A DNA stretch of 64,000 nucleotides from an uncultured Methanosarcinales archaeon (GCA_964388715.1 CAYMBN010000005.1:3434-67433); one strand, 5' to 3'; counted from the stretch's first letter, positions 17,701-64,000 are shown. The notes: generated by a model from the sequence alone, not told the origin. Made by a program: numbers and translations.

Positions 17701-18443
17701 TAAGATTTTTCTTGGAAAATTTTATTCACTTCTTCCAACTGTTCTTTATTACCTATATCCCACCATTTTTCACTAGAAATCATTGCATAAACATTTGTTT
17801 TATTCACAAGATACCTAATTACTTCTCCAATATTATCGGGCCTATCTTTAGAGGTTATGAAATCTTTAAACAACACTAAATCATGTTTTTTAAATATGTA
17901 ACAAAGAGTCGCAGCAAAACTAGTTTTTGGGTTTTCTGGTTTTTCTTCAAAACCAATTATTTTATTATTCTCATCAACCTCAACAACACCAAACTTTTTA
18001 GCAAGCTTTTGTTTTTCTATCAAATCATATATTGCAATAACAGAAGCATTATTTTTATTTGAGATCTCATTCAGCACAGCCAAGCTAAATTCAAACAAAT
18101 TGTCACCACCAATTATCATTAAGTCATCATTTATATCTTCTTTTTCAATAACAAAAGCCATATCACCTACAGCACCAAGTCTGTCTTCATTAGTTAAAGT
18201 ACCATCATTAATAATCTTAACCTTCTTATCAAAATTCAAATTATTCTTCCATTCTTCAAAAACACTAAAAAACTTATTATTTGTAACAATAAAGATTTCA
18301 TCAATTTCATCAACCAATTTAATTTTATCAAGAATATGTTCCATCATAGGTTTTTTACCAATCATAAGAAGAGGTTTTGGTTTATTTAATGTTAAAGGAT
18401 ACAACCTTGTTGCATAACCAGCAGCTAATATTATACATTTCAT
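17700..18443 (-). CDS. sugar-1-phosphate nucleotidyltransferase (NDP-sugar pyrophosphorylase)
   Basis: MKCIILAAGYATRLYPLTLNKPKPLL signature of the NTP_transferase family. Confidence 0.75.
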   Translation of the reverse strand: MKCIILAAGYATRLYPLTLNKPKPLLMIGKKPMMEHILDKIKLVDEIDEIFIVTNNKFFSVFEEWKNNLNFDKKVKIINDGTLTNEDRLGAVGDMAFVIEKEDINDDLMIIGGDNLFEFSLAVLNEISNKNNASVIAIYDLIEKQKLAKKFGVVEVDENNKIIGFEEKPENPKTSFAATLCYIFKKHDLVLFKDFITSKDRPDNIGEVIRYLVNKTNVYAMISSEKWWDIGNKEQLEEVNKIFQEKS

Positions 18444-43838: not shown

Positions 43839-46529
43839 ATGGATTTGTTTCTAAAAAGGATGGGGAAAAAGGCAGGGTTGTCTCCTAATGTTTTCTCATT
43901 TAAAAAAAAAGACAAAAACAAAAGTTTAACAGTAAAAGATATTGAAAAGTTAATAAAGTTAGCTATTTCTGAACTTGCAAAAATTCAAAAATCACATTCT
44001 AAAATAGAACAAGCACCAGCAAATATACAAAAACAATTTGATAATCTTAATAAAAGGATAACAGAACTTCAAACAATTAAATCACAACCAAATCTTCTTA
44101 ATAACAAAGCTGTTCAAAAAAATTTATCTATCTTACTCCAAGGTTTAGCTCAAAAACAAGAAAAAGAATTTGAGGAATTTGAAGAAAAAAGAGATAAAAA
44201 GATAAGAAAACAGAAACAAAAAGATGACCAAGCAAAACTAAAAGGAAAACTATCAGAAATTCATAAAGAAAGAGAACGTAGGAAAAGGGAAGGAACCTGG
44301 CAAGGTTATGGAAATGAACAAAAGGGGACTGAAGCTGTGATTAAAACATTACAAGAGAATAGAGATTTAGCATACAAATTAATGATGTTATCAAAAAAAG
44401 AAAACAAAAAAGAAGATATTAATTACTACAAAGAAAAATTTAACAAATTTCAAAGAGATTTACAAAAAAAACAAAAAGAATACAGAGATAAAGGTGGAAA
44501 AACAGGCATGCGTAAGCTAAAAGAAAAAGAACTTGAACTCGAAAAAGTTAAAATCAAAGAATTAGAAAAAGAAGGTGAATTAACAAAAGAAGAAAGTGAA
44601 GTTCTACAAAAAGAAATTGAAGAAAAAGAACAGAAAAAATCAAAATTTTGGGGTAAAGCTAAAGCATGGGCACGTATGGATGCTACTGAAGGTGTAAAAA
44701 AAGGTTCAAAAGCTTTTGGAGGTTGGCTTGGAAAAGGTATTGAAAAAGGTACTGGATTACAAGTTAATAAATGGGGCAATTATGCTGCAAACAAACTCGG
44801 AAAAGCTACAAATGCTATTAAAGGAGCTGGAAAAGCTCTTGATAAAGGAACAGATACTTATACACCAACACTTAAGAAATGGAGTAAGAACATTCTTAGT
44901 GGAATAACAGGTGCTGGGGGCCTTATGGGTGGTGTTGCACAAGAAGGTGTTAAAAACATGTTCAGTGGTGGCCATAATACACTTATATGGTTAGGATTAT
45001 TCTTATGGTGGATTGATTGGAAAGCGTATGCTTTTAGGATAGGTAATCAAGGAAGCTTTATCAAACTATTTGGTGTAAAACTATTTTGGCCAATTGGAAG
45101 TGTACAACTAGATTTCTTTGTATTAATCTTTTTAGTAGTATGGTTAGTATTAGCAGAAAGCCATTGGCAATCATTCTTTTACATTTTAACAGCATTTGCA
45201 CTAGAAGTATTCTTACCAGGATTAGGAAAACAATTTGGTTTATTAAGCACACCAATAGTTCAACACATATTTAACAATGCAATCTGGCCTTGGTGGTTGT
45301 TAATTATGGGTATTTTTTATAATAAAAGACGTGGTAATGAATCCAAATTAATAACTTTTGTTTTTGTTTCGTGGGCATTATTTTGGATATTTATAATTAT
45401 TTCATCAACATGGGTTGCAGGATTAGCAGACATGACAGAACAATTAACAATAGAAGAACAAAACGAATTACAAGATGCAATAACAGAAAGATGGTATGAT
45501 ACTTGGGGAAGTGACTTTAAAATGTTTTGGGATTGTTATATTAGTATGGATACAATAGTAGGAACCATATCAGGTGGAGAAACACCTGAACAATGTTTAA
45601 ATCGTTTGAAAAAAGAAGCAGAACAAACAGTTGAAGGTGAAGTAGACCAGGAAATAGAAGAATATGTTTCACTTAAAGTTGATTTCAAATCAGGACAAAA
45701 TACAATTTACTTTGCTAACCAACCAATCTCAGTTTTAATCCAAGGAAAAGATCCAACAGTCCAGGAAGATACAGAATCAACAGAAAAGATTCCACCTATT
45801 AAATTTGGTTGTGTATTTATTAAAGAAGGAAACAACCAAAACACAATTAATTGTAAACCTACTCCAGAAACACTTGAACTAGGAAAAGATGAAATAACAG
45901 AAACAATACTCTGCAAACCTGAAGAACCTTTAACTGATGGCAAGTACACTATAAAATTCTTTGCTAAATTAGAAAAAGTAAAAACAAATACTAATTTAAT
46001 AAGATTATTTACTGGCAAAAACAATTATGGAAAAATGACAATGGAAGAAAGAGCAAGAAAACTACTTCAAAAATTTCCTAGTACAGATTACAGTTCAAAA
46101 TCAGAACCAGAATTTGTAAGACTTAATCTAGCAACAGAAAAACCATTAATTCCTTTAGGAGAAAAAGGATTTGTATTAGAAAGTTCAGTTGAAAATATGG
46201 ATAATGGAAAAATATTAAAAATAAATGAAATTAATGTAGAATTACTCAAGTTAAAATTTAATGATCAAGAACATTCACTAGAAATCACAAATCAATGTTT
46301 ATATGAAGAACAAGATAACAGATTAGTTATAACAAACTTTGAAAGAGACTTCAGTTTGATCAAAAAAGGTAATCAAATCAAATTACCACCATGTAGATTA
46401 ACTGCAGCTAATTTTGAGGATTTAAACGTTGTAAGAGTAGTTAAGATTGATTCATTCATTAATTATGATTATGAAATCACAAAAAAACATGATTTTAATG
46501 TATTAGGAGGACAATCAGAAATAGAATGA
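43839..46529 (+). CDS. 896-aa hypothetical polytopic membrane protein: about 370-aa K/E-rich coiled-coil N-region, G/K/A-rich amphipathic segment, about 6 TM core, 370-aa C-terminal domain
   Basis: Composition and hydropathy read from the translation; no recognised catalytic motifs. Confidence 0.5.
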   Translation: MDLFLKRMGKKAGLSPNVFSFKKKDKNKSLTVKDIEKLIKLAISELAKIQKSHSKIEQAPANIQKQFDNLNKRITELQTIKSQPNLLNNKAVQKNLSILLQGLAQKQEKEFEEFEEKRDKKIRKQKQKDDQAKLKGKLSEIHKERERRKREGTWQGYGNEQKGTEAVIKTLQENRDLAYKLMMLSKKENKKEDINYYKEKFNKFQRDLQKKQKEYRDKGGKTGMRKLKEKELELEKVKIKELEKEGELTKEESEVLQKEIEEKEQKKSKFWGKAKAWARMDATEGVKKGSKAFGGWLGKGIEKGTGLQVNKWGNYAANKLGKATNAIKGAGKALDKGTDTYTPTLKKWSKNILSGITGAGGLMGGVAQEGVKNMFSGGHNTLIWLGLFLWWIDWKAYAFRIGNQGSFIKLFGVKLFWPIGSVQLDFFVLIFLVVWLVLAESHWQSFFYILTAFALEVFLPGLGKQFGLLSTPIVQHIFNNAIWPWWLLIMGIFYNKRRGNESKLITFVFVSWALFWIFIIISSTWVAGLADMTEQLTIEEQNELQDAITERWYDTWGSDFKMFWDCYISMDTIVGTISGGETPEQCLNRLKKEAEQTVEGEVDQEIEEYVSLKVDFKSGQNTIYFANQPISVLIQGKDPTVQEDTESTEKIPPIKFGCVFIKEGNNQNTINCKPTPETLELGKDEITETILCKPEEPLTDGKYTIKFFAKLEKVKTNTNLIRLFTGKNNYGKMTMEERARKLLQKFPSTDYSSKSEPEFVRLNLATEKPLIPLGEKGFVLESSVENMDNGKILKINEINVELLKLKFNDQEHSLEITNQCLYEEQDNRLVITNFERDFSLIKKGNQIKLPPCRLTAANFEDLNVVRVVKIDSFINYDYEITKKHDFNVLGGQSEIE

Positions 46530-47557
46530 AAAAAATAATATTTTTAGTTATAATTGTACTTTTAATAACTTCCTGTGGTAATTTAAAAGATTTTTATACA
46601 ACAGACAGAACAACCACCCCCACTATTACCGGTGACCAAGATATCACAAGACAAATTCCAGAAAGACCAAACTTTAGACAAGGCACTTCTGGACTTAAAC
46701 TCAACTTTGTTCAAAATAAACCAGAAAATGAAATTAAGTTTGGTGATTCATTTATCATTGCCCTTAAAATTCACAACCAAGGAGCAACAGACATAATAAA
46801 TGGAAAAATTAGTATTGAAGGATTACTTGATCAGCATGACGCAGTAAACATGGTAAAATCAGAATATGTTGACATCTATGAGTTCCAACCATTTGATGTA
46901 AAAGGAAAAAGCATGATATATTTTGATGGACAAAATATTGAATTAAAAGTCAAGGCAAAAGCAAAAAGCATTGATCCTAAAAAGGAGAAAACACCTGTGA
47001 GTTTTGAATTAATTGCAAAATATCCTTATGAAACAATAGCAGCCATCCCAATCTGTATTAATCTTGATTCAATTGAAGATAACACACATGAATGTAAAAG
47101 AAATACTATTTATACCTTATCAGGTGGTCAAGGTGCGCCTGTTGCTGTTACACAAATTGAACAAGATCTAATTGATAAAGGAGAAATCAGTGAAAAACAA
47201 AACAAAATCAATTTAAGATATACAATCACTGTTGAAGATAAAGGGAATATTGGTGAACGTATTGATGGTGATATAAATATCAAAGTATTCTTATCCAAAG
47301 ATAAAGAAATAACTCAACATTGTGAACCATTAAAAGTTAAAGAAAGAATTATACTGGATAAAGAAGGAAAACCACAAAAAGCAGAAACCAAAGTAAAAAA
47401 ATGGGTATGTGAACTTGAAGATGTTTATAATGATAAAGATATTCAAAAAACAGAATATACTTCCTTAATAAGAGTAGAATTAAAATATAATTATGTAACT
47501 ACTACCACCAAATCATTATATATTATAAAATCAAAGGATAGCACTGATACTACCTAA
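46526..47557 (+). CDS. lipobox lipoprotein, paralogue 1 of 3 (GQGAPVAVT family)
   Basis: Signal peptide plus LITSC lipobox; shares GLxxNF, CxnC…GQGAPVAVT, NxGEG, CEP and LKYNY blocks with the next two genes. Confidence 0.55.
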   Translation: MKKIIFLVIIVLLITSCGNLKDFYTTDRTTTPTITGDQDITRQIPERPNFRQGTSGLKLNFVQNKPENEIKFGDSFIIALKIHNQGATDIINGKISIEGLLDQHDAVNMVKSEYVDIYEFQPFDVKGKSMIYFDGQNIELKVKAKAKSIDPKKEKTPVSFELIAKYPYETIAAIPICINLDSIEDNTHECKRNTIYTLSGGQGAPVAVTQIEQDLIDKGEISEKQNKINLRYTITVEDKGNIGERIDGDINIKVFLSKDKEITQHCEPLKVKERIILDKEGKPQKAETKVKKWVCELEDVYNDKDIQKTEYTSLIRVELKYNYVTTTTKSLYIIKSKDSTDTT

Positions 47558-47604
47558 AGTATACCGAAAAACTTATATACTCAAAAAAAGAACACTATTG
47601 TAAA

Positions 47605-48627
47605 ATGAAACTTTTGAACAAGAGTGAAAAAGGTTTAGAAAAAAGGGATAGAAAACTTATTCTCTCTGTAATTCTTATAGCAACACTACTAATCACAGCT
47701 TGTGGCCAAATAGGAGATACTGGTGATTCCACAAGAGTAGAAGGTGCTGAAAGAGGTGGTGGCATTATTGCTGAAAAGGTTTACACAGGTACACAAGGAT
47801 TAACAATGAACTTCTTAGAAAATACTCCTCCTGATTTTATATATGAAGATGATAAAATGACTGTAGGTGTTGAAGTACGTAATTTAGGTGCACGTAAAAT
47901 TGAAAGCGAAAGTGATGGTTACCTTTACTTAAGCGGTTTTGATCAAAAATTATTTGGAGACCATAAACCAGATGGAGAAAGTTTAAGGGGTTTAGAACCA
48001 AAATCCGAATTTAATCCAGAAGGTGGATATACAGTGCGAACATTCACACTTGGTGAAGCAATACTTCCAAAAGGTGTAGATGTATATCCAGCCAAAATGA
48101 GAGTTACTTTGTGTTATAATTATCAAACAATTGCAAACCCAATTGTTTGTGTTGATCCAACAATATATGATCCAACCATTGTAAGAGCAAGTGAATGCCA
48201 AATGGGACAAGTTAATGTTGGTAATGGTCAAGGTGCACCTGTTGCTGTAACAGCTGTACAAGAAAAAATGGTTGGAAAGGATAAAGTACTATTCACAATC
48301 CAAATAAGCAATGTTGGTGAAGGAACAGTATTATTAAATCAAGGAGATTGCCAACCAGGTGCAAAAATAGATAGAGAAGATTTAAACAAATTACATGTTG
48401 ATTTTATTAGGTTCAAAGGAGTTAATATTAGGGATAATTGTGAACCAATTAAAAATATGGAAACAAAATATGAATTAAGATTAACAGATGGAACAGCAAC
48501 ATTATATTGTAATGCTGATATCGCACGAGATACATCTGCTTACACAACCCCATTAGAAATTGGATTAGGATATGCTTATACTAATTATATTGAAAAACAG
48601 GTAGAAGTAAGAAATTTACCTGAATAA
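47605..48627 (+). CDS. lipobox lipoprotein, paralogue 2 of 3
   Basis: LITAC lipobox; same conserved blocks (NGQGAPVAVTAVQEK, SNVGEGT, DNCEP, LGYAY). Confidence 0.55.
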   Translation: MKLLNKSEKGLEKRDRKLILSVILIATLLITACGQIGDTGDSTRVEGAERGGGIIAEKVYTGTQGLTMNFLENTPPDFIYEDDKMTVGVEVRNLGARKIESESDGYLYLSGFDQKLFGDHKPDGESLRGLEPKSEFNPEGGYTVRTFTLGEAILPKGVDVYPAKMRVTLCYNYQTIANPIVCVDPTIYDPTIVRASECQMGQVNVGNGQGAPVAVTAVQEKMVGKDKVLFTIQISNVGEGTVLLNQGDCQPGAKIDREDLNKLHVDFIRFKGVNIRDNCEPIKNMETKYELRLTDGTATLYCNADIARDTSAYTTPLEIGLGYAYTNYIEKQVEVRNLPE

Positions 48628-48645
48628 AAAGGAGGGTAATTTAAA

Positions 48646-49683
48646 ATGGTAAACAAAAAATTAACAATTGTTTTAACATTATTTGTATTAATTATGTTCT
48701 TAGCAGGATGTGATGGTAGTAGAGAACCAAGCGGAGATACTAGTACAAGTACTGCTTCTGGTGGACAAGGAAGATCTTTTATTGGGGGAGATGAAGGAAT
48801 TGATGTAAGATTTATGACAGGCGCACCTCCAAGAGAAGTATATGATACAGATTATTCATTTGGCATCAATGTAAGATTAGAAAATGTTGGTGAATGGGAT
48901 ATAAAAGATGCTGATGAAGATGGTAATGTTGACGCAAGAATGAAAGTTACAGGTATTGATCCATCTGACTTTGGTAAAACAAGTTCTGATTTAATTAAAT
49001 ATAGTTCAGATGAATTAATTGGTGCACATCTTGATTCAGAAGATAATGAAATTGATGGAGTAATCACAAACATAGATTTCCAAGATTTAAAATATTCAGG
49101 AGAAGTAACAGGACAAGTTGAATTCATTGTAAGAGCAGATCTCTGTTATGAATATGGTACAAAAATTAACTCAAAAGTATGTATATTAAAAGATTTAATT
49201 GGAAAAACAAGAAAAAGCGGAGAAGACCCATTCTGTGAACCTACTGAAGATAAAACAAGATTAACAGAAAATAGTGGAGCTCCTGTACATGTAACATCAT
49301 TTAAACAAAGTGTAATGGGAACAGACAAAATTTCTGTAAGATTTGACATTGAACATGTAGGAGAAGGTTATATCTACAAATCTAACACAGACTGTCAACC
49401 AACATTAGAAGATAAAAATAAAATAAAAGTAATAGTAGATGCAGGTTTACAAGATATAACATGTAGTGGATTACAAAATGGTGCTCAAGCCACCGACAAG
49501 GAGAGTTATAGCGGAGACATTAAATTACATGGTGATCAAGGAAGTGAAATAAACACAATCCTTTGTACAATTCCCTTACCAGCTGATGGTAGAGAAGACT
49601 ATGAAAAACAAATTACAATAACATTAAAATATGCATACGAAGACTTTATAGACCAGCCATTATTAGTTAAACATACTGAATAA
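48646..49683 (+). CDS. lipobox lipoprotein, paralogue 3 of 3
   Basis: FLAGC lipobox; conserved blocks (NSGAPVHVTSF, HVGEGY, DCQP, LKYAY). Confidence 0.55.
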   Translation: MVNKKLTIVLTLFVLIMFLAGCDGSREPSGDTSTSTASGGQGRSFIGGDEGIDVRFMTGAPPREVYDTDYSFGINVRLENVGEWDIKDADEDGNVDARMKVTGIDPSDFGKTSSDLIKYSSDELIGAHLDSEDNEIDGVITNIDFQDLKYSGEVTGQVEFIVRADLCYEYGTKINSKVCILKDLIGKTRKSGEDPFCEPTEDKTRLTENSGAPVHVTSFKQSVMGTDKISVRFDIEHVGEGYIYKSNTDCQPTLEDKNKIKVIVDAGLQDITCSGLQNGAQATDKESYSGDIKLHGDQGSEINTILCTIPLPADGREDYEKQITITLKYAYEDFIDQPLLVKHTE

Positions 49684-51070: not shown

Positions 51071-51931
51071 TTATTTGATGTCCTTAATTGGGGACAGATT
51101 ATCAATCTTTTCTTTCAATAATCTGTCGTCATAGCAAATCTCTTTTAATCCACAGACATTACATTTATTTTCATTAGCACAAAAGTCAGGTAAATCATGT
51201 GATAACAAAAGAGTATGCACTCTTTGCGTAGTTTCTTTTATTTCATCTTTAAGTGCAGGATTAATTATTACTTCACGTTTTTCATCTGTATCAAGATAAT
51301 GTACATAACCTTTGTTTAGCTCAAGATTAAATTTTTCATTTAACATCATAACATAAGCACCAATTTGAATTCTATGTGAAGGCCAAACACCTTCTTTAGG
51401 TATTTTACCTGTCTTTAATTCCACAGGCACACATTTATCAGGAAAAACTTCTAAACGATCAATAATCCCTCTAAGTTGTAATTCTTCTGACTGTACTGAA
51501 ACCTCTGACTTTATTTTAGGAACAAGCACTTCCCAAAGTTTATCACCAAAAATATCGTGTTTCAATATTGCATTATGAATATTAATTGCTCTCATTTTAG
51601 CTTCTCTAATAAAGTAAGGCCATGTTTTATTAAATGCATCAATTAAGGGAAGCTTTACTCTTCTTAATGCTGATTTATTTGCAATAATTGTATTACGTAA
51701 CAATCCAGAATATTTTTGAGTATAAATCCTTTCAATTTGTTCATAAGCAAGTTTAGTTTTAATTGATGTTACAATAAATTGTTCAATCTTATTTATATTA
51801 TCATAAGTTTGATGTCTTATTGAACCTTTAACAAGTGCTTCCTTTGGAATTTCAACCAATCTGAGAACTCTTTCCAAAAAGATCTTTCTCTTACAATAAA
51901 TATAAGCTGATAATAAGGTAACTGCTATCAT
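51071..51931 (-). CDS. Cas4-family PD-(D/E)xK nuclease with 4Fe-4S cluster (DUF83), stand-alone
   Basis: N-terminal YCKRK Cys, GIIDRLEV…VELKTGK (D…ExK), QIGAYVMM (QxxxY), C-terminal C-x5-C-x2-C-x5-C. Confidence 0.6.
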   Translation of the reverse strand: MIAVTLLSAYIYCKRKIFLERVLRLVEIPKEALVKGSIRHQTYDNINKIEQFIVTSIKTKLAYEQIERIYTQKYSGLLRNTIIANKSALRRVKLPLIDAFNKTWPYFIREAKMRAINIHNAILKHDIFGDKLWEVLVPKIKSEVSVQSEELQLRGIIDRLEVFPDKCVPVELKTGKIPKEGVWPSHRIQIGAYVMMLNEKFNLELNKGYVHYLDTDEKREVIINPALKDEIKETTQRVHTLLLSHDLPDFCANENKCNVCGLKEICYDDRLLKEKIDNLSPIKDIK

Positions 51932-55753: not shown

Positions 55754-55987
55754 ACTTCTCCACACATTACATATTAAGTAATTAAATAATAAACAATTAA
55801 CTTATTTTTCTTCTAAAAATAAGCAATATTTATAAATGATTATTACATATTAAGTATTTACCAATAATTTTTAAGTATTGAGGAAGTAAAACTGAAAACC
55901 AGCAGAAAAAGAGGTAAAAATACAAATAATTTAGATAGAACTCCTTCTCTTTCAGAAAAACAACTTCTAAAAACAATCCATTACTTT

Positions 55988-56434
55988 GTGGATATATTAA
56001 AAAGTGATTTTGATTATTCATATGAAAAAATTCTTTCATCAATCAATCGAAAAGAAATATTAATTCCACTAAAAGTATTCAAAACAAAACTAAGTCCTGC
56101 TGAATCACTTGTTAAATACTTAAAAGAAAATTGTAATCTAAAATTATCACAAATTGCAGCATTGACTAATAGAGATCAAAGAGGAATCTGGCTCACATAT
56201 AATAATTCAGTGAAAAAACATAAACAATTATTTATTATTCAAAATCCAAAATACCTAATCCCAATTTCTATTTTTTCAAATCGTAAACTAAGCATTCTTG
56301 AAAATTTAGTATTTTACTTAATCAAAACTTATAATCTCACAATCAAACAAATTACTGAATTACTTACTAAAAAATCTAGCACTATTTGGAGTATTAAGAA
56401 TAGAATTAAAACAAAATTAAAAACAAATGAATAA
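55988..56434 (+). CDS. small protein with two tandem GerE/LuxR-type (sigma-70 region-4-like) HTH motifs
   Basis: LSPAESLVKYLKENCNLKLSQIAALTNRDQRGIWLTYNNSVKK and LSILENLVFYLIKTYNLTIKQITELLTKKSSTIWSIKNRIKTK both fit the LuxR HTH pattern; GTG start, so the start is uncertain. Confidence 0.45.
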   Translation: MDILKSDFDYSYEKILSSINRKEILIPLKVFKTKLSPAESLVKYLKENCNLKLSQIAALTNRDQRGIWLTYNNSVKKHKQLFIIQNPKYLIPISIFSNRKLSILENLVFYLIKTYNLTIKQITELLTKKSSTIWSIKNRIKTKLKTNE

Positions 56435-59400
56435 AAAATTCAAAAAACAGGATAGAGAAATAAGAGATTTACATAATAAGATTATTATTTGTAAAAAATA
56501 CAAACAAGAAATACAAGCAAATACAAACAAAATAAACAAATTATTATTTGAAAATAAAATAAGTGAACAAGAGCATAAAGATTTAATTTACAAATATTTA
56601 CAAGGAAAAACACAACAAGAATGGATCAATATATACAACAACCACATTAAAACATGTCAACAAAAAATACATGAAATAGAATTTAACAAGAGTAAATTCA
56701 AAAGCATAACACTAATAACTTTAATGTCTTTTATTTTAATATTTGGATTAATTTATAATGGTATAAATCCAATAACAGGATTAACAACATTTGAACAACA
56801 AACAATTCAAGCAGAATCATTAAGTAATAATTGGGTCATAGTTGAAAATTCAGAATATAATAATAATCAAGCAATTATGTCTGCTTTTATAGGAGACAAA
56901 TTTGAATATACTTTTAATGGAACATCAATAAGCTTGATTACACAAAACAGATATGATTTTGGTATAATTCAAATAACAATTGATAACACAGTACAAGAGA
57001 TTGATTTGTATAATAACAATACACAATTTAATATAATCCATGAACTAGCAACAGGCCTAGAAAATAAACAACATAATCTCACAATAGAAGTTTTAGAGAA
57101 CAAAAACAATAATTCAGAAAGCCATTTTGTAGTAATAGATGGATTTATAATAACATCACCAGAAGAACCAACACAACAAGAAAATATCACAAATATAACT
57201 ATAAACCAAACAATCTTTATTGAAAACACAACAAATATTACACAACCAACAGAGAACATAACCAACATTATTCAACCAACACAAAACATTACAAATATAA
57301 CAATAAATCAAACAATCCATACTGAAAATATAACTAATATTACTCTTCCACAAGAAAACACAACAACCACCGTAGAAAATACAACAAACATTACAACTCC
57401 ACAGCAAAATCAAACAAACATAACATCACAAGAAAACATTACAATAATAATCAATGAAACAACTGAAAACATTACAACACAAATCAACACAACAATCAAA
57501 GAAGAAATAACACAAGGTTTTGCAGAAATTAACAAACCAGTTAAATGGGTTAAAAAGATTGAGAATACAACAAAAACAGACTTACCAAAACAAGCATTTA
57601 ATATAAGTGTCTTTAAAACAGAAAAAAGAAAAGGATTAGGTATTGCATCAACAAAAAGAACAAAGATAAAGAAAGTAAAAATCAATGATTCAGGTGTTTT
57701 AAAAGAATTATCAGCATACAAATACAAGAAAAAAGGCATTGGAAAGATCACAGGCGCTGCAATAGGTGGTGAAATCAATGTTTTCAAACAATTCTGGTAC
57801 TGGTTATTAAGCTTAAGAAACTCAATAACAGGATACGCTGTTAGTGATGTTAATGAATTAGTTATTGAAGAAAATGAAACCAAGTTTGAAATAGAATACT
57901 TCACAGACGCACCAGTTGCAACTGAAAATGAAATCACTTATTATAAAAAACAAATAACAATCTCAAGTGAATTACATTATGAAAACATTTTAGCTTATAC
58001 AAATATCACAGAAACAAACCAAAATAACATTAAATTATATCATCTTATCAACAACACAAGAGAATTAGTAACAAATATAACTTATATTGATCAAAACAAT
58101 AACAATCTCATTGACAAAATTCAATGGATAGTTCCACACTTAAGCAATGAAAGTTATGAAATAGAAATAACAATCCTCAATGTTCAATCATATCCTACTG
58201 TTGGCGGAAACTGGACAGTAATGTTCAACACAACAGGAAAAGCTAACCTAACAATAAAAGCAATCAGAGATACAACATGGAGTAACAGTAATGAAAACCA
58301 TGATCTAAAATTCTTAGAAATCAAATGTAACAACACAATCCTTAATTACACCTGGACAAACAATTCTGTATTTATAGAAAATTATACTTGTAACCAAACA
58401 AGTTATGAAACAAGCAAAGTAATCACATCAGGAGTTCATGATTTATTATTCCAATTCGGCAATCAATCAGCAGAAGCACATAATTTTGCTTCAATCAATT
58501 TATCCAACTCAGATGCATCATGGTATGGGGAAGCACCTTCAGATGTTCTTGGACATTTTATTATGGGTTCGGGCGATATTAATAATGACAGTTTTAGTGA
58601 TCTTATAATTGGTGCTTATGCAAATGGTTATGGCGGTGGAACTTCCGGTAAAACTTATTTAATATATGGTCCAGTAAATGAAAATAATGTTAATATAAGT
58701 AATGCTAATGCATCATGGCATGGGGAAGCAGCTGGTGACAATTCAGGAATAACTGTTGCAGGAGTAGGTGATGTTAACAATGATGGATTTGGTGACATTG
58801 TAATTGGAGCTTCATCAAATGATGATGGAGGAGATTCTTCAGGTAAAATATATTTAATTTATGGGCCAACTTATGATACAAATATTAATTTAAGTAATGC
58901 TAATGCTTCTTGGTATGGAGAATCTGGAGGTGATTTCTTAGGTTGGTCACTCTCAAAAGCAGGTGATGTTAATAATGATGGGTTTGATGATATTATAGTT
59001 GGTGCTAATGGAAATGATTATGCAAGAAATGGTGCTGGTAAAGCTTACTTAATTTATGGGCAGGATTACACTGGAACATTTAACATAAGTACTGCTAATG
59101 TATCATGGCATGGAGAAGCAGATGACAAATTAGGCGATTTTGTTTCAAATGCAGATGATGTAAACAATGATGGATTTGATGATATTTTAATTGGAGCTCC
59201 TAATAATGATAATGGTGCTACCTGGACAGGAATGATATATTTAGTTTATGGGCCTGCAAATGGTGTAAATAATAATGTAAGTACAGCCAATGCTTCATGG
59301 TATGGGGAAAACACACTTGATAATGCTGGTAGTACAGGAGAAATCGCAGCAGCAGGTGATGTTAATAATGACGGATTTGATGATATTTTAATTGGAGTAA

Positions 59401-62400
59401 AAGTTAATGATGATTATGGAAATAATATTGGTAAAGTATATTTGATTTATGGACAGAATTATAATACAACAAACGTTAATTTAAGCACTGCTAATGCTTC
59501 TTGGTATGGTGAAGCTGCTGTTGATAGGTTAGGAGACGCTGTTACAGGTGCAGGTGATTTTAATAATGATGGATTTGATGATATTTTAATAGCTTCTCTC
59601 CGTAATGGCTTTGGAGGGAACCTAGCAGGCAGAATATACTTAATTTATGGGCCAGCAAGTGGAAAAAATATGAACATAAGTAATGTTACAAATATTTCAT
59701 GGTATGGAGAAAACCAAACAGATGGTGCTGGTAAAGTCCTTTCAAGTGCAGGAGATGTTGATAATGATGGTTATAATGATATTTTAATTGCTTCTGGCAA
59801 TGATATGGGTGGAACTGGTGCTGGAAAAGTATACTTAATCTATGGAAGTAGTCCATTCACAAGTCCAACATTAACAATAAACAAAAATATTACACAAGTT
59901 AATGAAAGTTATAATACAATTCAAATTAATTGGACAGCATCACACAATTCTCCTATAATAACTGCTTTATTTAACATAACTTTCCCTAATGGAAGTTTAC
60001 TTAGCAATTCAACTTTAAGTTCAGGAAATGTAAGTTTAAACCTCACCAATCTTACAGCATTAGGTACATATACAATAAATTTATGGGCAAATAATACCTA
60101 TAATTTAACTAATGTAACAAGTGACACATTCAGTGTTAATGATACAAATCCTCCAAACATCACATTAATTATACCAACAAACAATACTAAAAATTACACA
60201 CATTATAATATAAATTTTTATTATAATGTTACTGATGTTTTATCAAATGTAAACAATTGCTCATTAATTATAAATAATATAATTAATCTAACAAACATTA
60301 CAATTGATCAATCACTAAGTAGTTTACATTTTAATCAAACATTTACAGATGGACAATACAACTGGTCTATTAATTGTACTGATAATGCTAGTAATATTGG
60401 AGAAAGTAATATTTTTAATTTAACAGTTTTAATGGACACAACTTCTCCATCTGTAAATTTAGATAATCCAACAAATAATTTTAACGCAAATCAAATAAAT
60501 ATTTCTCTTAACTGTTCTGCTACTGACAATGAACAATTAAAAAATGTCACCATTTATACAAACATGACAGGATCATGGCAAGCTAATTATACAGGCAGTG
60601 TTAGTGGAATAAGTAATTCAACTAATGTAACACTCACAGGATTAGGTGATGGAACTTACTTATGGAACTGTCTTACATATGATAGTGCAGGTAACAATGC
60701 ATGGAACAATACTAATTACACATTTAATATTGATGCAACCCCACCAAACATCTCATTAATGTCGCCTGCTAATAATTCAAATTGGACAGATAATACACTT
60801 GTTGTTTTTGTTTACAATACAACTTCAACTGATGTTACCAATTGTTCATTAATCATAAACAATAAAACATACAAAACAAACTCAACAATAACACAGAACC
60901 AAATCCTAAATTTTTCTAACATAGTAAACAATGGACCAAACAATTGGAGCATTAACTGTACTGATAATTTTAGTAACACAATCAGTTCAAAAACATGGAT
61001 AATTAATGTTAATTATACAAAGAATCACACTTTGTATAAAGTTTGGGATACTGGCACAATTGATCTTTCACTTGCTTCCTTAGATATATTTGATTATTCA
61101 CAAGATAATAACAAGAATGAAATAATAGTTGGAGGATTTGGAGATTTGTTTGCTTACTATGCAAACGGAACACAAATCTGGAACAGTACTGATCCTGTTG
61201 GATTTATTCGAGACATAGAAGTATTTGATATTGGAAATGGTTTTAATGATACAATAGCTGTTGCAGATTCAACAGCAGGATTCAAAATATATGATAAAGA
61301 TGGAAACAAGTTATGTAATAATTCCTACACTTCTAGTGCAGAACAAACAATAAGTGTCGGAGATTTTGATAGAGACAATCAAAGTAGGGAAATTGTTTTA
61401 CTAAACTGGATATTACCTAACACATTCAAATTAAAAGCATTCAATTCAAGCTGTAACTTATTATGGGAATACTCATTAACATCTATAACAACAGAAACTG
61501 AAACAGGTGACTTTGATGGTGATGGTTACAAAGATGAAGTTGCCTTAATAAGTAATGGTACATTATATATATTCAATAGTACAGGTGGAGTTAGATGGAA
61601 CACAAGTTATTTAGGAGATGCAACAATGTCATTAGAAGTATTTGATATTAATAATGATACAGATGATGAAATAATCATTGGTGTAAGATATGCCAAAACA
61701 ACACACATGATAATGGCATACAATGGTTCTGGTACTGTAATGTGGAACAACACAGATGTTTCTGGTCAAATACACGAAATAAGATTTGATGATTTTGACA
61801 ATGATGGAAGAAAAGATGATATTGCTTCTGCAGACACTGATAATGCCTTAGCTGTTGTCATAGATAGTGAAGGAAATACTCTATGGAGCCATGATTTTAG
61901 TAGTGGTACAACTGTTTATTCTCTTACAACAGGAGATATCAATAATGATAATAGAACAGATATTGTAACAACAGAAGGTACAAATGCCAATATTTATGGA
62001 ATTGAGGATGGAGGAACAATTGCTACTTTCACAGATCCAACTACTAATATTGGATTAATTGACTCTGACGGAAGCATAGTAACAGCTGATTTAGATGGTG
62101 ATGATTATTTGGATATAATTGTTGCAGAAATAAGCGGAATATTATATTTACTAGAAGCAAGACCTGAAAATAATACAGCACCAAATATAACACTAAATAG
62201 TCCAACACACAATAACAACATAAGTAATTCCACAATTAACTTTAATTGGACTGTGATTGATAATTTAGATTTAAATTTACTTTGTAATCTAACAATTGAT
62301 GATATAGTAAATGCTTCAAGTATTAAATCCTTAAATAATACACCAAATAATTATACAGTTGATAACTTTAATGATGGGTCACATAACTGGAGCATGACTT

Positions 62401-64000
62401 GCTGGGATTATGATGGAAATTCTAACACATCACAAACAAATAATTTTACAATAGATTCAACACCACCAACAATAACACTCATCAACCCAAATAACAACAC
62501 AATCAACTACACAAACACAAACATTGATTTCTACTATAATGCAACAGATACACTCTCAGAAATATCTAACTGTTCATTAATCATCAACAATGTAATAAAC
62601 CAAACAAACACATCAATCAATAAATCCTTAAGCAGCTTACATTTTAATTTAACTCTAACCACTAATAATTATACTTGGTCAATTAATTGTACAGATAATA
62701 TAGGTAACCTAAACACAAGTCAAACAAGAAGTTTAAACATAATACACCTTAACATCTCACTAAACATCACTCCAAATTCAACAAATATCAATTCTATTGT
62801 TAATGTTAGTGGAAAACTTAACTTTAGCAATGGTACTAATATTGCTAATACCAACATAAGTATATTCCATGATGGAACACGTTTATGGTATAATGAAACA
62901 TTAAGAACACTAGTAAACTATGAAACACCAAATTCAACAAGAACAGATACTAACGGAAATTATAATTACAATTTTACCACTTCCACAACACTCAGCACAC
63001 ACCAAATAATAGTAAACACAACCTTCCAAAGTTTAACAGCCGAAACCACTAAAAATTATTTTATATCTCCTTTATGTGGTGATGGACTATGTAATGGTCC
63101 AGAACTATGTTCAACTTGTGAAGCAGACTGTGGAGCATGTTCCGGAGGAGATGATGGTGGTGGCGGAGGAGGTGGATTTATCTTACCAGAAGAAGATGAA
63201 TATAATGAAACACAACAAGAAGAAGTTATAAATGAAACCCAGGAAGAACCAGTTATAAATGAAACTCAAGAACAAAATGAAACAACTGAAGAAGAAACAC
63301 CAACTGAAGAAGAACCTAGTGAACAACCACAACCTGAACAAGAAATACCACAACAAGAACCAATTGAAGAACCAATTACTCCAACTCCAGAGGAAGAAGA
63401 ACCTATTGAAGAAGAACCAATCCTTCCTTCACCAGTAAAACCAAAAAATCCAATCTTATATATATCAATTCCAGATGAAATCAAAGCAAATCAAGAATTT
63501 GAAATAAAAATATTCCTAGATGATATTAAAAACTTAAATAACCTTGAATTTGATCTTGAATATGATTCATCCTACTTAAGTTTAATAAATGTAGAAAAAG
63601 GAAGTTTCATAAGAAACTTAGATTTTAGTTATTCTATTAATGAATTAGAACAAGAAACTTTTATGAGTAATATTCAAAAATATGTTACAAATACTGATTC
63701 ATACATTTCTATTCAAAGTACAGGACAACCATCAACAATATTAAGTGGTTCAGGACAAATTGCAACTATTAAATTCCAAACACTTCAACCAGGAGAAACC
63801 ATATTAAATCTTAATAAGTTAATATTCATTAATACAAGCGATGAAAAGATTGATACAGAATCAAGAGATACAAACATTGAAATTATTGGAGAAACCACAA
63901 TTGTAATTAAAAATAATAAATCTATTAATAAATACACAGAAAAAGAACTTTTCTTAATATCTGATAATAACTGGCAAAAGATATTTACATTTATACCAAT
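56427..64000 (+). CDS. giant type-II-anchored cell-surface protein (>2,524 aa, runs off the window end). Domains: cytoplasmic coiled-coil N-region, single TM, sequon-dense stalk, 7x FG-GAP propeller, Ig-like NCSLIINN repeats, second Ca-loop propeller, Cys knot, acidic linker, cohesin-like domain
   Basis: Frame (positions = 0 mod 3) verified at 56427, 58767, 58962 and 63552. No + strand ORF is reported in the track because the ORF has no stop inside the window. The start ATG overlaps the stop of the HTH gene. Confidence 0.7.
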   Translation, partial: MNKKFKKQDREIRDLHNKIIICKKYKQEIQANTNKINKLLFENKISEQEHKDLIYKYLQGKTQQEWINIYNNHIKTCQQKIHEIEFNKSKFKSITLITLMSFILIFGLIYNGINPITGLTTFEQQTIQAESLSNNWVIVENSEYNNNQAIMSAFIGDKFEYTFNGTSISLITQNRYDFGIIQITIDNTVQEIDLYNNNTQFNIIHELATGLENKQHNLTIEVLENKNNNSESHFVVIDGFIITSPEEPTQQENITNITINQTIFIENTTNITQPTENITNIIQPTQNITNITINQTIHTENITNITLPQENTTTTVENTTNITTPQQNQTNITSQENITIIINETTENITTQINTTIKEEITQGFAEINKPVKWVKKIENTTKTDLPKQAFNISVFKTEKRKGLGIASTKRTKIKKVKINDSGVLKELSAYKYKKKGIGKITGAAIGGEINVFKQFWYWLLSLRNSITGYAVSDVNELVIEENETKFEIEYFTDAPVATENEITYYKKQITISSELHYENILAYTNITETNQNNIKLYHLINNTRELVTNITYIDQNNNNLIDKIQWIVPHLSNESYEIEITILNVQSYPTVGGNWTVMFNTTGKANLTIKAIRDTTWSNSNENHDLKFLEIKCNNTILNYTWTNNSVFIENYTCNQTSYETSKVITSGVHDLLFQFGNQSAEAHNFASINLSNSDASWYGEAPSDVLGHFIMGSGDINNDSFSDLIIGAYANGYGGGTSGKTYLIYGPVNENNVNISNANASWHGEAAGDNSGITVAGVGDVNNDGFGDIVIGASSNDDGGDSSGKIYLIYGPTYDTNINLSNANASWYGESGGDFLGWSLSKAGDVNNDGFDDIIVGANGNDYARNGAGKAYLIYGQDYTGTFNISTANVSWHGEADDKLGDFVSNADDVNNDGFDDILIGAPNNDNGATWTGMIYLVYGPANGVNNNVSTANASWYGENTLDNAGSTGEIAAAGDVNNDGFDDILIGVKVNDDYGNNIGKVYLIYGQNYNTTNVNLSTANASWYGEAAVDRLGDAVTGAGDFNNDGFDDILIASLRNGFGGNLAGRIYLIYGPASGKNMNISNVTNISWYGENQTDGAGKVLSSAGDVDNDGYNDILIASGNDMGGTGAGKVYLIYGSSPFTSPTLTINKNITQVNESYNTIQINWTASHNSPIITALFNITFPNGSLLSNSTLSSGNVSLNLTNLTALGTYTINLWANNTYNLTNVTSDTFSVNDTNPPNITLIIPTNNTKNYTHYNINFYYNVTDVLSNVNNCSLIINNIINLTNITIDQSLSSLHFNQTFTDGQYNWSINCTDNASNIGESNIFNLTVLMDTTSPSVNLDNPTNNFNANQINISLNCSATDNEQLKNVTIYTNMTGSWQANYTGSVSGISNSTNVTLTGLGDGTYLWNCLTYDSAGNNAWNNTNYTFNIDATPPNISLMSPANNSNWTDNTLVVFVYNTTSTDVTNCSLIINNKTYKTNSTITQNQILNFSNIVNNGPNNWSINCTDNFSNTISSKTWIINVNYTKNHTLYKVWDTGTIDLSLASLDIFDYSQDNNKNEIIVGGFGDLFAYYANGTQIWNSTDPVGFIRDIEVFDIGNGFNDTIAVADSTAGFKIYDKDGNKLCNNSYTSSAEQTISVGDFDRDNQSREIVLLNWILPNTFKLKAFNSSCNLLWEYSLTSITTETETGDFDGDGYKDEVALISNGTLYIFNSTGGVRWNTSYLGDATMSLEVFDINNDTDDEIIIGVRYAKTTHMIMAYNGSGTVMWNNTDVSGQIHEIRFDDFDNDGRKDDIASADTDNALAVVIDSEGNTLWSHDFSSGTTVYSLTTGDINNDNRTDIVTTEGTNANIYGIEDGGTIATFTDPTTNIGLIDSDGSIVTADLDGDDYLDIIVAEISGILYLLEARPENNTAPNITLNSPTHNNNISNSTINFNWTVIDNLDLNLLCNLTIDDIVNASSIKSLNNTPNNYTVDNFNDGSHNWSMTCWDYDGNSNTSQTNNFTIDSTPPTITLINPNNNTINYTNTNIDFYYNATDTLSEISNCSLIINNVINQTNTSINKSLSSLHFNLTLTTNNYTWSINCTDNIGNLNTSQTRSLNIIHLNISLNITPNSTNINSIVNVSGKLNFSNGTNIANTNISIFHDGTRLWYNETLRTLVNYETPNSTRTDTNGNYNYNFTTSTTLSTHQIIVNTTFQSLTAETTKNYFISPLCGDGLCNGPELCSTCEADCGACSGGDDGGGGGGGFILPEEDEYNETQQEEVINETQEEPVINETQEQNETTEEETPTEEEPSEQPQPEQEIPQQEPIEEPITPTPEEEEPIEEEPILPSPVKPKNPILYISIPDEIKANQEFEIKIFLDDIKNLNNLEFDLEYDSSYLSLINVEKGSFIRNLDFSYSINELEQETFMSNIQKYVTNTDSYISIQSTGQPSTILSGSGQIATIKFQTLQPGETILNLNKLIFINTSDEKIDTESRDTNIEIIGETTIVIKNNKSINKYTEKELFLISDNNWQKIFTFIP

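What the first reader, a model, noticed from the sequence alone, without database searches (positions are those of the whole stretch)
56427..64000. Giant multidomain surface protein (>2,500 aa, incomplete)
A single uninterrupted ORF runs from 56427 to the window end, starting at an ATG overlapping the stop of the HTH gene. From N- to C-terminus it contains:
- cytoplasmic coiled-coil N-region and one TM helix (type II topology)
- hyper-glycosylatable stalk
- 7-bladed FG-GAP propeller
- three Ig-like NCSLIINN…NWSINCTDN repeats
- a second propeller with DxDxDG Ca loops
- a Cys knot
- a poly-Gly/acidic E-P-Q linker
- a cohesin-like domain
This combination of integrin-like propellers and cohesin is typical of adhesins. 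It is a prime candidate for host attachment in an episymbiotic archaeon.
Basis: partly seen in the sequence, partly recalled or inferred. Interest (0 to 1): 0.65.

Follow-up and report, generated by a model that had tools for sequence, protein, structure and literature searches.

The report
HTH-coupled giant DPANN surface protein
The open reading frame is real and encodes most of a 2,800-residue membrane-anchored, adhesin-like surface protein of a tiny DPANN archaeon; the unexpected part is that the small DNA-binding (HTH) gene overlapping its start belongs to a family that is linked or fused to such surface-protein genes across this group of archaea.

Summary
**Observation: confirmed.**
- Bases 56427-64000 are one open frame of 2,524 codons. 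The other two frames carry 222 and 369 stops.
- The complete gene, found on a public contig, encodes 2,800 aa.
- Tools confirm:
  - one N-terminal membrane helix;
  - a stalk rich in N-glycosylation sequons;
  - a 7-blade integrin-type FG-GAP propeller;
  - a second FG-GAP-like propeller;
  - a six-Cys module and an acidic linker;
  - a cohesin domain above Pfam's threshold.
It could not see the C-terminal tip, which resembles the pre-catalytic part of C25 peptidases but lacks the catalytic residues.

**Interpretation: partly supported.** The gene context is archaeal and the homologues are DPANN. The architecture looks like an adhesin. Host attachment remains inference, and no dockerin partner was found on the contig.

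**New result.**
- The upstream 148-aa gene is a tandem σ70-region-4-like HTH, in a family of about 1,900 clusters.
- In 78 loci from other DPANN genomes, the HTH is either fused to the cytoplasmic C-terminus of a giant protein or sits directly upstream of a large membrane-anchored ORF.
- 17 of 56 downstream neighbours are ≥1,000 aa, against 12 of 492 background genes (p≈3e-11).
- In syntenic relatives the gene behind the HTH is swapped for a different one.

The parts
55988..56434 (+). 148-aa tandem HTH protein with two σ70-region-4-like units. It is the conserved partner gene; its stop overlaps the giant ORF's start by 8 nt.
   Evidence: 26 of 30 family members hit Pfam Sigma70_r4_2 (best E 3.8e-10). 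The same module sits at the C-terminus of homologous giants (E 1e-18 to 1e-28).
56427..64000 (+). Giant ORF: the first 2,524 of 2,800 codons. The gene continues about 830 nt beyond the window.
56427..56696 (+). Cytoplasmic K/E-rich N-terminal region (aa 1-90), conserved in homologous giants.
   Evidence: Alignment consensus; 20 K+R residues. Coiled coil not tested.
56697..56765 (+). Single transmembrane helix (aa 91-113, signal anchor, N-terminus inside), followed by the motif 'NPITG'.
   Evidence: It is the only hydrophobic segment. The post-anchor [ILVM]TG motif is enriched in related surface proteins.
56856..57155 (+). CE2_N-like β-sandwich (aa 144-243).
   Evidence: PF17996 at 28.1 bits against a cut-off of 27.9. 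Homologous segments occur in L046 and L071.
57162..57491 (+). N-x-T sequon-rich low-complexity stalk (aa 246-355), encoded by degenerate tandem DNA repeats.
   Evidence: 24 sequons in aa 200-400. Tandem repeats of period 102, 51 and 30 nt at 57175-57417.
57492..58526 (+). Conserved module of tandem β-sandwiches (aa 356-700), shared by many of these DPANN giants. No Pfam or NCBIfam model covers it.
   Evidence: 72 homologues, none with a Pfam domain in this region. AlphaFold2 pLDDT 84.6. Only generic Ig-like adhesin fold matches. No NCBIfam hit.
58527..59921 (+). Seven-blade integrin-α-type FG-GAP β-propeller with GDVNNDGFDD calcium-type loops (aa 701-1165).
59940..61025 (+). Ig-like block A: one Cys-less unit plus three Cys-paired units (aa 1172-1533).
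   Evidence: Big_13 and Big_7 below threshold; internal repeat analysis.
61026..62171 (+). Second β-propeller of FG-GAP_3 / λ-carrageenase-propeller type, with D-x-D-x-D loops (aa 1534-1915).
62172..63068 (+). Ig-like block B: two Cys-paired units plus one Cys-less β unit (aa 1916-2214).
63075..63140 (+). Six-cysteine mini-module CGDGLCNGPELCSTCEADCGAC (aa 2217-2238).
   Evidence: Cys positions. Not found in any of the 78 related loci.
63141..63461 (+). Poly-Gly and acidic E/P/Q/T linker (aa 2239-2345).
   Evidence: Translation. Tandem repeat at 63204-63269.
63477..63881 (+). Cohesin domain (aa 2351-2485).
   Evidence: PF00963 at 36.1 bits against 24.1. The five best PDB sequence matches are all cellulosomal cohesins, though weak (E 0.026-0.37).
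63894..64000 (+). Start of the distal C-terminal α/β domain (aa ~2490-2800, mostly beyond the window). It is related to the region preceding a Peptidase_C25 core but stops before the catalytic His and Cys.

Best explanation
This is a genuine 2,800-aa type-II (N-terminus inside) membrane-anchored surface protein of a Woesearchaeota-like DPANN archaeon. It is one member of a family of mosaic giant surface proteins.

**Architecture (shown).** A conserved base carries a variable outer 'payload'.
- Base:
  - a cytoplasmic N-terminal region;
  - one TM helix with a post-anchor ITG motif;
  - a sequon-rich stalk;
  - a conserved tandem β-sandwich module.
- Payload here, in order:
  - an integrin-type 7-blade propeller;
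  - Cys-paired Ig spacers;
  - a second propeller, then more Ig units;
  - a cohesin;
  - a non-catalytic C25-prodomain-like tip.

**Mechanism (inferred).** The protein projects these binding modules away from the cell to capture a ligand on another cell or polymer. The cohesin may dock a partner protein.

**Genetic coupling (shown).** The gene is coupled to the overlapping upstream gene for a cytoplasmic tandem σ70-region-4-like HTH protein. In other DPANN genomes the same HTH is fused to the giant's C-terminus, behind a second membrane pass. In related genomes the gene behind the HTH is exchanged for a different one.

**Role of the HTH (inferred).** It regulates this surface-protein operon, or relays surface events to transcription.
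For: - **ORF and orthologue.** The ORF is intact and the full length is known. An orthologue ends at the same point.
- **Domains.**
- **Topology.** One TM helix, and a positive-inside charge bias.
- **Sequons.** 159 against 65±7 in shuffles, with a glycan-biosynthesis cluster in the same window.
- **Conserved module.** It is shared with 72 proteins and its model is confident.
- **Mosaic payload.**
- **HTH family.**
  - 1,911 cluster representatives, 1,435 of them at E≤1e-10.
  - 26 of 30 members hit Sigma70_r4_2.
  - The module is fused to the C-terminus of 6 of 8 aligned homologous giants and of 20 of the top 150 hits.
- **Fusion junction.** 11 of 14 fused loci show 'YST..GxW', then a hydrophobic 13-mer, then 4-8 Lys/Arg, before the HTH.
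- **Synteny across 78 loci.**
  - 14 loci have the HTH fused to a giant.
  - 37 loci have it paired with a downstream ORF that is ≥500 aa or truncated by the contig end.
  - Stop/start overlaps of 4 to 14 nt between the paired genes are typical.
- **Control.** Downstream neighbours ≥1,000 aa number 17 of 56, against 12 of 492 background genes (Fisher p 2.7e-11) and 0 of 51 upstream neighbours.
- **Variable slot.** Flanking genes are conserved in L004, L005 and L059 (RFC 70-74% identical), but the gene behind the HTH differs: 406 aa, ≥3,325 aa, or 2,800 aa here.
Against: - There is no experimental or expression evidence of any kind.
- No ligand, host or dockerin partner was identified.
- No dockerin is on the 76.6-kb contig. 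The rest of the genome was not available.
- Neither DNA binding by the HTH nor any interaction with the giant protein has been shown.
- Roughly half of the paired downstream ORFs in other genomes lack the long cytoplasmic N-region. A direct HTH-to-N-region contact therefore cannot be universal.
- 22 of the 78 loci pair the HTH with a smaller protein of 100-490 aa. The link is to membrane-anchored or secreted proteins in general, not only to giants.
- The tip domain could not be modelled (pLDDT 38).
Confidence: 0.7

Rival explanations
1. Scaffoldin-like nutrient-capture platform. The cohesin recruits dockerin-tagged enzymes, and the propellers and CE2_N-like module bind polysaccharide. The protein would then organise extracellular polymer degradation or scavenging rather than attachment to a host cell.
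For: - Cohesin above Pfam's threshold.
- The five best PDB sequence matches are all cellulosomal cohesins.
- The CE2_N-like module sits at threshold, and propeller 2 matches the λ-carrageenase propeller family at 36.5 bits against a cut-off of 26.8.
Against: - No dockerin was found by Pfam lists or by a motif sweep of the contig.
- The protein has no catalytic domain.
- There is a single cohesin, not an array.
- The cohesin is not shared by any related giant.
Confidence: 0.15
2. Contact sensor. The giant ectodomain is the input of a transmembrane signalling device, and the HTH is its output. The HTH is tethered in the fused forms and sequestered or co-assembled in the split form, and it is released or activated on ligand binding, force or proteolysis. 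This would be analogous to ToxR/CadC-type regulators or σ/anti-σ pairs.
For: - Recurrent fusion of the HTH behind a second membrane pass.
- Overlapping stop and start codons typical of co-produced partners.
- Castelle et al. 2021 (PMC8204110) reported σ70-like genes in Woesearchaeota with no anti-σ partner and an unknown means of control.
Against: - No evidence of release, cleavage sites or DNA targets.
- The HTH also pairs with small secreted proteins.
- A plain autoregulator encoded at the head of an operon would explain the adjacency, though not the fusions.
Confidence: 0.25
3. Passive envelope or glycocalyx component. The protein would be a heavily glycosylated structural protein that spaces or protects the cell surface, with no specific ligand.
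For: - Extreme sequon density.
- Many Ig-like spacer units.
- A glycan-biosynthesis cluster in the window.
Against: - Two calcium-loop propellers and a cohesin are binding modules.
- The payload is hypervariable between syntenic relatives. That fits an interaction surface under diversifying pressure better than a structural coat.
Confidence: 0.1
4. Pseudogene or chimeric assembly.
For: - Five base differences between the window and the ENA contig cluster within 74 nt of one FG-GAP blade.
- The gene ends just where a C25 catalytic core would be expected.
Against: - There are no stops in 2,800 codons, where other frames average one per 7-11 codons.
- The same protein end occurs in an orthologue from another sample.
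- A clean TAA, a GGAGG motif and the ATG of the next gene follow the ORF.
Confidence: 0.03

Closest known systems
Giant surface ('SPEARE') proteins of Nanohaloarchaeota (Hamm et al. 2019; PMC10266531)
   Same: They are DPANN archaeal, membrane-bound, Ig-domain-rich giant ectodomain proteins. They vary between genomes and are proposed to mediate host interaction.
   Different: - SPEARE proteins are 5,000-9,400 aa, start with a Sec signal peptide and carry a VirB4/TraG-like ATPase domain.
- This protein has an internal signal anchor, two FG-GAP propellers, a cohesin and no ATPase.
- It has an HTH partner that the SPEARE paper read here does not mention.
- No sequence relationship was detected or tested directly.
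Large Woese-/Pacearchaeota-specific extracellular proteins (fam00969, Castelle et al. 2021, PMC8204110)
   Same: Same lineages, sizes up to ~3,000 aa, and proposed to attach to other cells.
   Different: Those proteins are defined by a murein lytic-transglycosylase domain, which is absent here.
Integrin α-subunit β-propeller and its prokaryotic FG-GAP relatives (PMC3192720)
   Same: Seven FG-GAP blades with calcium-type D-x-N-x-D-G loops. Integrin αV, α4 and α5 are the best solved matches (E 1.6e-13).
   Different: There is no β-subunit partner, no thigh or calf domains and no αI domain. Here the propeller is one module in a mosaic archaeal protein.
Cellulosomal scaffoldin cohesins and non-cellulosomal archaeal cohesins
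   Same: The Pfam Cohesin match covers positions 10-138 of the 139-position model.
   Different: There is a single copy, no dockerin found nearby, and only weak similarity to any solved cohesin (E ≥0.026).
Bacterial membrane-tethered transcription regulators (ToxR/CadC) and ECF σ / anti-σ pairs
   Same: A σ70-region-4-type HTH is genetically coupled, or covalently tethered, to a single-pass membrane protein with a large extracytoplasmic part.
   Different: - The HTH protein has two region-4-like units and no region 2, so it is not a σ factor.
- Archaea use TBP, TFB and TFE to start transcription.
- The membrane partner is a giant adhesin-like protein, not a small anti-σ factor.
- No signalling has been shown.
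Peptidase C25 (gingipain) family
   Same: The C-terminal ~280 aa are 41% identical to the region that precedes a C25 core in P0295.
   Different: The protein ends before the catalytic His and Cys, so it cannot be an active C25 peptidase.

Membership tests
FG-GAP / integrin-α-type β-propeller | Seven FG-GAP repeats scoring above the Pfam gathering threshold | tested here: met
   PF01839 at 154 bits against a cut-off of 22.1, with 7 stretches. Seven regular ~65-aa units start at aa 707-1100.
FG-GAP / integrin-α-type β-propeller | Calcium-binding D-x-[DN]-x-D-G-x-x-D loops in the blades | tested here: met
   GD[VIF][ND]NDGF[DG]D occurs in blades 2-7 and GDINNDSFSD in blade 1. Metal binding itself was not testable.
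FG-GAP / integrin-α-type β-propeller | Closed seven-blade propeller fold | not tested
The fold is inferred from homology to integrin αV, α4 and α5 propellers (E 1.6e-13).
Cohesin (PF00963) | Sequence match above the curated threshold over the whole domain | tested here: met
   36.1 bits against 24.1, covering model positions 10-138 of 139.
Cohesin (PF00963) | A cognate dockerin-bearing partner protein | tested here: inconclusive
   None was found on the 76.6-kb contig by precomputed Pfam lists, by 17 further ORFs scanned, or by a motif sweep. The rest of the genome was not available.
Peptidase C25 (gingipain-like) | Catalytic His-Cys dyad within a C25 core | tested here: not met
   The relative P0295 continues into the core (His in 'YNDHGG', Cys in 'MACLTC'; PF01364 at 36.4 bits). 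This protein stops about 110 residues earlier.
Cell-wall-binding repeat 2 (CWB2, PF04122) | Match above the gathering threshold | tested here: not met
   14.2 bits against 24.9 (E 0.06-0.07).
σ70 family sigma factor (for the upstream HTH gene) | Region 2 (binds the -10 element and core polymerase) together with region 4 | tested here: not met
   Only region-4-type matches were found: Sigma70_r4_2 in 26 of 30 members. NCBIfam σ models align only at positions ~100-165 of 165, at 12-23 bits against cut-offs of 43-323. At 148 aa the protein holds two HTH units and nothing else.
HTH-coupled DPANN giant surface proteins (family proposed here) | Tandem region-4-like HTH module encoded directly upstream or fused to the C-terminus | tested here: met
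   8-nt overlap with the HTH gene; family-wide linkage.
HTH-coupled DPANN giant surface proteins (family proposed here) | N-terminal signal anchor with a post-anchor [ILVM]TG motif, plus the conserved β-sandwich module (aa 356-700) | tested here: met
   TM helix at aa 91-113 followed by 'NPITG'. The motif occurs in 19 of 41 anchored ORFs ≥800 aa, against ~3% expected. The module is shared at E down to 1e-78.
Nanohaloarchaeal SPEARE giant proteins | VirB4/TraG-like ATPase domain and an N-terminal Sec signal peptide (as described in PMC10266531) | tested here: not met
   No ATPase family appears in the Pfam or NCBIfam scans. The hydrophobic segment lies at aa 91-113, not at the N-terminus.
N-glycosylated archaeal surface protein | Enrichment of N-x-S/T sequons beyond what composition predicts | tested here: met
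   159 observed against 65±7 in 200 shuffles.
N-glycosylated archaeal surface protein | Actual glycan attachment | not testable with these tools
   This needs glycoproteomics. The window does hold a glycan-synthesis cluster, but no AglB/STT3 was seen on the contig.

The most novel reading that the evidence does not exclude
The HTH-giant cassette may be an archaeal outside-in signalling device. A giant adhesin would serve as the extracellular sensor, and a σ70-region-4-like HTH, either membrane-tethered or co-produced, would be the transcriptional output. If so, it would explain the orphan 'σ70-like' genes reported in Woesearchaeota, for which no anti-σ factor is known. It would also give ultra-small symbionts a direct way to couple host contact to gene expression, with the sensor gene sitting in a rapidly exchanged genomic slot.
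Probability: 0.25. Interest if true: 0.8.

Novelty: new variant of a known kind. Interest (0 to 1): 0.6.

Why it matters
DPANN archaea are thought to live attached to other cells, yet for the large Woese-/Pacearchaeota groups almost nothing is known about how they attach or sense a partner.

This locus gives a concrete candidate with a defined domain map. More generally, it gives a recognisable genomic signature: a tandem HTH followed by an anchored surface-protein gene, sometimes fused to it. That signature flags such genes in hundreds of genomes. It also shows they occupy a hypervariable slot, as expected for molecules at a host interface.

It offers a testable answer to an open point raised in 2021: what the σ70-like genes of Woesearchaeota are for, and what controls them. 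Whether the family described in that paper (fam00359) is the same as this HTH family still has to be checked.

Tried and rejected
- **Alignment of all 71 giant homologues.** The tool failed. I used 8 of them instead.
- **C-terminal tip model.** AlphaFold2 with only 3 sequences failed (pLDDT 38). I did not use it for fold search.
- **PDB sequence searches.** Nothing significant for the HTH profile or for the C-terminal tip.
- **Dockerin hunt.** Nothing found by Pfam on 17 further ORFs, by the precomputed lists or by a regex sweep.
- **Cys-rich module.** It is not found in any of the 78 related loci, so it is not a family feature.
- **Upstream genes.** The 896-aa ORF and the three ~340-aa lipoprotein paralogues are not related to the giant. 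They are also not related to the ~300-350-aa family that follows fused giants, and that family has no counterpart on this contig.
- **Readings rejected.**
  - S-layer protein: the anchor is N-terminal and the payload is made of binding modules.
  - Active C25 peptidase: there is no catalytic dyad.
  - True σ factor for the HTH: there is no region 2.
  - Assembly chimera: an orthologue has the same end.


Full report
**1.
- Translating 56427-64000 gives 2,524 sense codons. The other two forward frames contain 222 and 369 stops, in DNA of about 28% GC. An open frame of this length cannot be chance.
- The ATG at 56427 overlaps the stop of the upstream ORF (55988-56434) in the sequence ATGAATAA.
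- A database search found the complete protein, P0001: 2,800 aa on a 76.6-kb ENA metagenome scaffold. I fetched that scaffold as locus L001.
- The window and that scaffold are identical over 17,574 compared bases except for five substitutions. All five lie within 74 nt of FG-GAP blade 5 and change four residues.

**2. The organism.**
- The window and its contig carry an archaeal ribosomal-protein operon (L5, S14, S8, L6, L19e, L18, S5, L30, L15), SecY, L34e, eRF1 and Pelota, RFC, and an archaeal histone.
- Every named homologue of the giant protein and of its neighbour comes from Woesearchaeota, Pacearchaeota or Nanoarchaeota.
- 'DPANN archaeon' is therefore supported. 'Episymbiotic' is an inference from what is known of the group.

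**3. Anatomy, from the membrane outward.**
- **aa 1-90:** a K/E-rich region conserved in homologues, with 20 K+R residues.
- **aa 91-113:** the only hydrophobic helix in the protein. No K or R occurs in the next 30 residues. That indicates an N-in signal anchor, which is an inference from the positive-inside rule.
- **aa 144-243:** a CE2_N-like β-sandwich, right at Pfam's threshold.
- **aa 246-355:** an N-x-T stalk encoded by degenerate tandem repeats. Over the whole protein there are 159 sequons, against 65±7 expected.
- **aa 356-700:** a conserved module with no Pfam or NCBIfam model. AlphaFold2 predicts tandem β-sandwiches with confidence (pLDDT 84.6). The only PDB fold matches are generic Ig-like domains of Gram-positive adhesins.
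- **aa 701-1165:** seven regular FG-GAP blades with GDVNNDGFDD loops. The best solved relatives are integrin αV, α4 and α5 propellers.
- **aa 1172-1533:** four β-sandwich units.
- **aa 1534-1915:** a second propeller of FG-GAP_3 and λ-carrageenase-propeller type.
- **aa 1916-2214:** three more β-sandwich units.
- Five of the seven units share a Cys pair.
- **aa 2217-2238:** a six-Cys module.
- **aa 2239-2345:** a Gly and acidic linker.
- **aa 2351-2485:** a cohesin (36.1 bits against a cut-off of 24.1).

**4. The distal tip (aa ~2490-2800, mostly outside the window).**
- It has only two relatives in 5.8 billion proteins.
- One relative, in L082, is an orthologue fragment. It ends within three residues of the same point and is followed by an unrelated gene.
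- The other, P0295, is 41% identical and continues into a Peptidase_C25 core with His and Cys motifs.
- Here the ORF ends with TAA, followed by GGAGG and the ATG of an M24 peptidase gene.
- The tip is therefore a non-catalytic α/β domain related to the region preceding C25 cores. Its fold could not be modelled.

**5. A family with a conserved base and a shuffled payload.**
- Homologues cover at most 27% of the protein.
- Against 78 related loci, only the conserved module (≥50% covered in 7 loci) and the Ig units (6 loci) recur. Propeller 1 recurs once. Propeller 2, the cohesin and the tip never recur.
- Precomputed Pfam lists for other family members show different payloads, including laminin-G, β-helix, CARDB, pentaxin and DUF2341.

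**6. The HTH partner is the main new finding.**
- **What it is.**
  - The upstream 148-aa protein consists of two copies of an 'IPxSIF…LSPLExLVKYLKEN…LNRDxRTIW…Y..A.KK' unit.
  - 26 of 30 family members hit Pfam Sigma70_r4_2, and many also hit HTH_23 or HTH_38.
  - NCBIfam σ models align only over their region-4 end and far below their cut-offs. It is not a sigma factor.
- **Size of the family.** An exhaustive HMMER search found 1,911 cluster representatives. Of the top 150, 20 are proteins of 1,000-5,900 aa with the HTH at the extreme C-terminus.
- **Fusion.**
  - In 6 of 8 aligned homologues of the giant, the same module is the C-terminal end (E 1e-18 to 1e-28).
  - It is preceded by a short hydrophobic segment and a poly-Lys/Arg run.
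  - 11 of 14 fused genomic loci share the junction 'YST..GxW', then 13 hydrophobic residues, then 4-8 K/R.
- **Side of the membrane.** Free-standing HTH proteins have no signal peptide. The module is therefore cytoplasmic, and the fused giants must cross the membrane twice. This is an inference.
- **Synteny.**
  - A scan of one genome per GTDB species returned 78 loci.
  - In 14 of them the HTH is fused to an ORF of ≥600 aa.
  - In 18 it is free-standing and directly followed by an ORF of ≥1,000 aa.
  - In 11 the downstream ORF runs off the contig end, and in 8 it is 500-999 aa.
  - In 22 it is smaller, and mostly still carries an N-terminal anchor. Five loci have no room downstream.
  - Stop/start overlaps of 4 to 14 nt between the two genes are typical.
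- **Control.**
  - 17 of 56 downstream neighbours are ≥1,000 aa.
  - The background is 12 of 492 genes in the same loci (Fisher p 2.7e-11).
  - None of 51 upstream neighbours reaches that size.
- **Caveat.** The loci are related genomes, so the p-value overstates independence. The pattern does span Woese-, Pace- and Nanoarchaeota assemblies from many sites.

**7. A hypervariable slot.**
- L004, L005 and L059 share the gene order lipoprotein×3, RFC, PRC, Cas4-like, aaRS, TldD, PmbA, HTH with the window (RFC 70-74% identical).
- What follows the HTH differs. It is a 406-aa ORF and then an AAA ATPase in L005. It is a ≥3,325-aa giant sharing only Ig units in L059. It is the 2,800-aa protein here.

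**8. Mechanism.**
- *Shown:* an intact gene; a single N-terminal anchor; a modular ectodomain of binding-type folds; sequon enrichment; genetic coupling to an HTH gene; payload turnover.
- *Inferred:* the protein projects from the cell and binds a ligand on another cell or polymer. The cohesin may dock a partner. The HTH regulates the operon, or relays surface events to transcription.
- The scaffoldin-like and passive-coat readings cannot be excluded. The pseudogene reading is essentially excluded.

**9. Comparison with what is known.**
- Giant surface proteins are established in Nanohaloarchaeota. Those have a Sec signal peptide and a VirB4-like ATPase.
- Large extracellular proteins bearing a lytic-transglycosylase domain are described in Woese- and Pacearchaeota.
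- This protein is neither of those.
- The same 2021 paper reported σ70-like genes prevalent in Woesearchaeota, with no anti-σ factor and an unclear means of control.
- The linkage found here may concern that family, but I could not verify the identity.
- Five full-text searches and the three papers I read turned up no description of an HTH-giant linkage. The library is incomplete, so this is absence of evidence only.

**10. Verdict.**
- The protein alone is a new member of a known kind.
- Taken together, the conserved base module, the HTH coupling and fusion, and the variable slot make it a new variant of a known kind.
- The signalling reading deserves experimental follow-up.

Noticed in passing
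window 59293-59366: Five substitutions between the window and the otherwise identical ENA scaffold (L001) cluster within 74 nt of FG-GAP blade 5. They change A956D, G968C, G971V and N980K, and the window version is the more consensus-like. The cause could be strain variation, gene conversion between blades, or assembly error in a repeat.
   Followed up: partly
window 1390-18443: A glycan-biosynthesis cluster. It holds a PMT_2-type GT-C glycosyltransferase, a GT4, a DegT aminotransferase, a PAPS-reductase-like gene with an EF-Tu-like GTPase (CysD/CysN-like sulfate activation), a phosphodiesterase/sulfatase-type enzyme, Capsule_synth, a flippase, UDP-glucose dehydrogenase and a nucleotidyl transferase. 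This hints at sulfated glycans on surface proteins.
   Followed up: partly
window 43839-49683: An 896-aa ORF with no family match is followed by three tandem, diverged lipoprotein-like paralogues of 343, 340 and 345 aa (23-26% identical to each other). The lipoprotein trio is conserved at the same relative position in L004, L005 and L059.
   Followed up: partly
window 56766-56780 (aa 114-118 'NPITG'); L010, L012, L015, L018, L024, L026, L027, L039 and others: A motif, (R/K)P.[IL]TG[FH]VV, lies just after the N-terminal hydrophobic anchor. It occurs in 70 of 285 anchored ORFs in the related loci, and in 19 of 41 of those ≥800 aa, against ~3% expected from composition. It may be a lineage-specific sorting or processing signal.
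   Followed up: partly
L011, L012, L024, L028, L032, L049, L061, L069, L073, L076, L077, about 10.4-11.9 kb: Giants with a fused C-terminal HTH are consistently followed by a secreted protein, ~300-350 aa in ten of the eleven loci (593 aa in L011). These proteins belong to one family (45 of 55 pairs at E<1e-5) and start with a signal peptide followed by 'GKITGKAT'. The family has no counterpart on this contig.
   Followed up: partly
window 55766-55780 and 55842-55856: An exact 15-nt direct repeat, ATTACATATTAAGTA, occurs twice, 76 nt apart, in the 234-nt intergenic region upstream of the HTH gene. It is a candidate operator, but it could be chance in such AT-rich DNA.
   Followed up: no
L083 1-4238: A distant relative of the C-terminal tip lies on a contig where a papain-like (C1) segment, the tip domain, a C25 core and further pieces are called as separate overlapping genes. 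This is probably one large protease-bearing surface gene broken by frameshifts or sequencing errors.
   Followed up: no
window 34186-36438: A 750-aa CARDB-domain protein with a signal peptide sits directly after the ribosomal-protein, SecY and EMC3-like block. CARDB-like segments also lie downstream of several fused giants (L011, L024, L061, L069, L073, L076, L077).
   Followed up: no
window 51071-51931 (- strand): A solo Cas4 / PD-(D/E)XK nuclease gene with no CRISPR-cas context in the window. It is conserved in L004 and L005 at 50-51% identity.
   Followed up: no
window 56969-57937 (- strand): Antisense ORFs of 99, 85 and 175 aa lie inside the A-rich stalk-coding region. They are almost certainly artefacts of the skewed composition, not genes.
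   Followed up: no
L026, L027, L031, L033, L040, L044, L046, L054, L058, L059, L064-L067, L071, L074, L076, L078, L081: Many contigs carrying this DPANN-type cassette are labelled 'uncultured Methanosarcinales archaeon', and one is labelled 'Bacillota bacterium', in third-party assemblies. L059 shares the window's gene order (RFC 70% identical), so that label at least looks wrong, and the others carry the same cassette.
   Followed up: no
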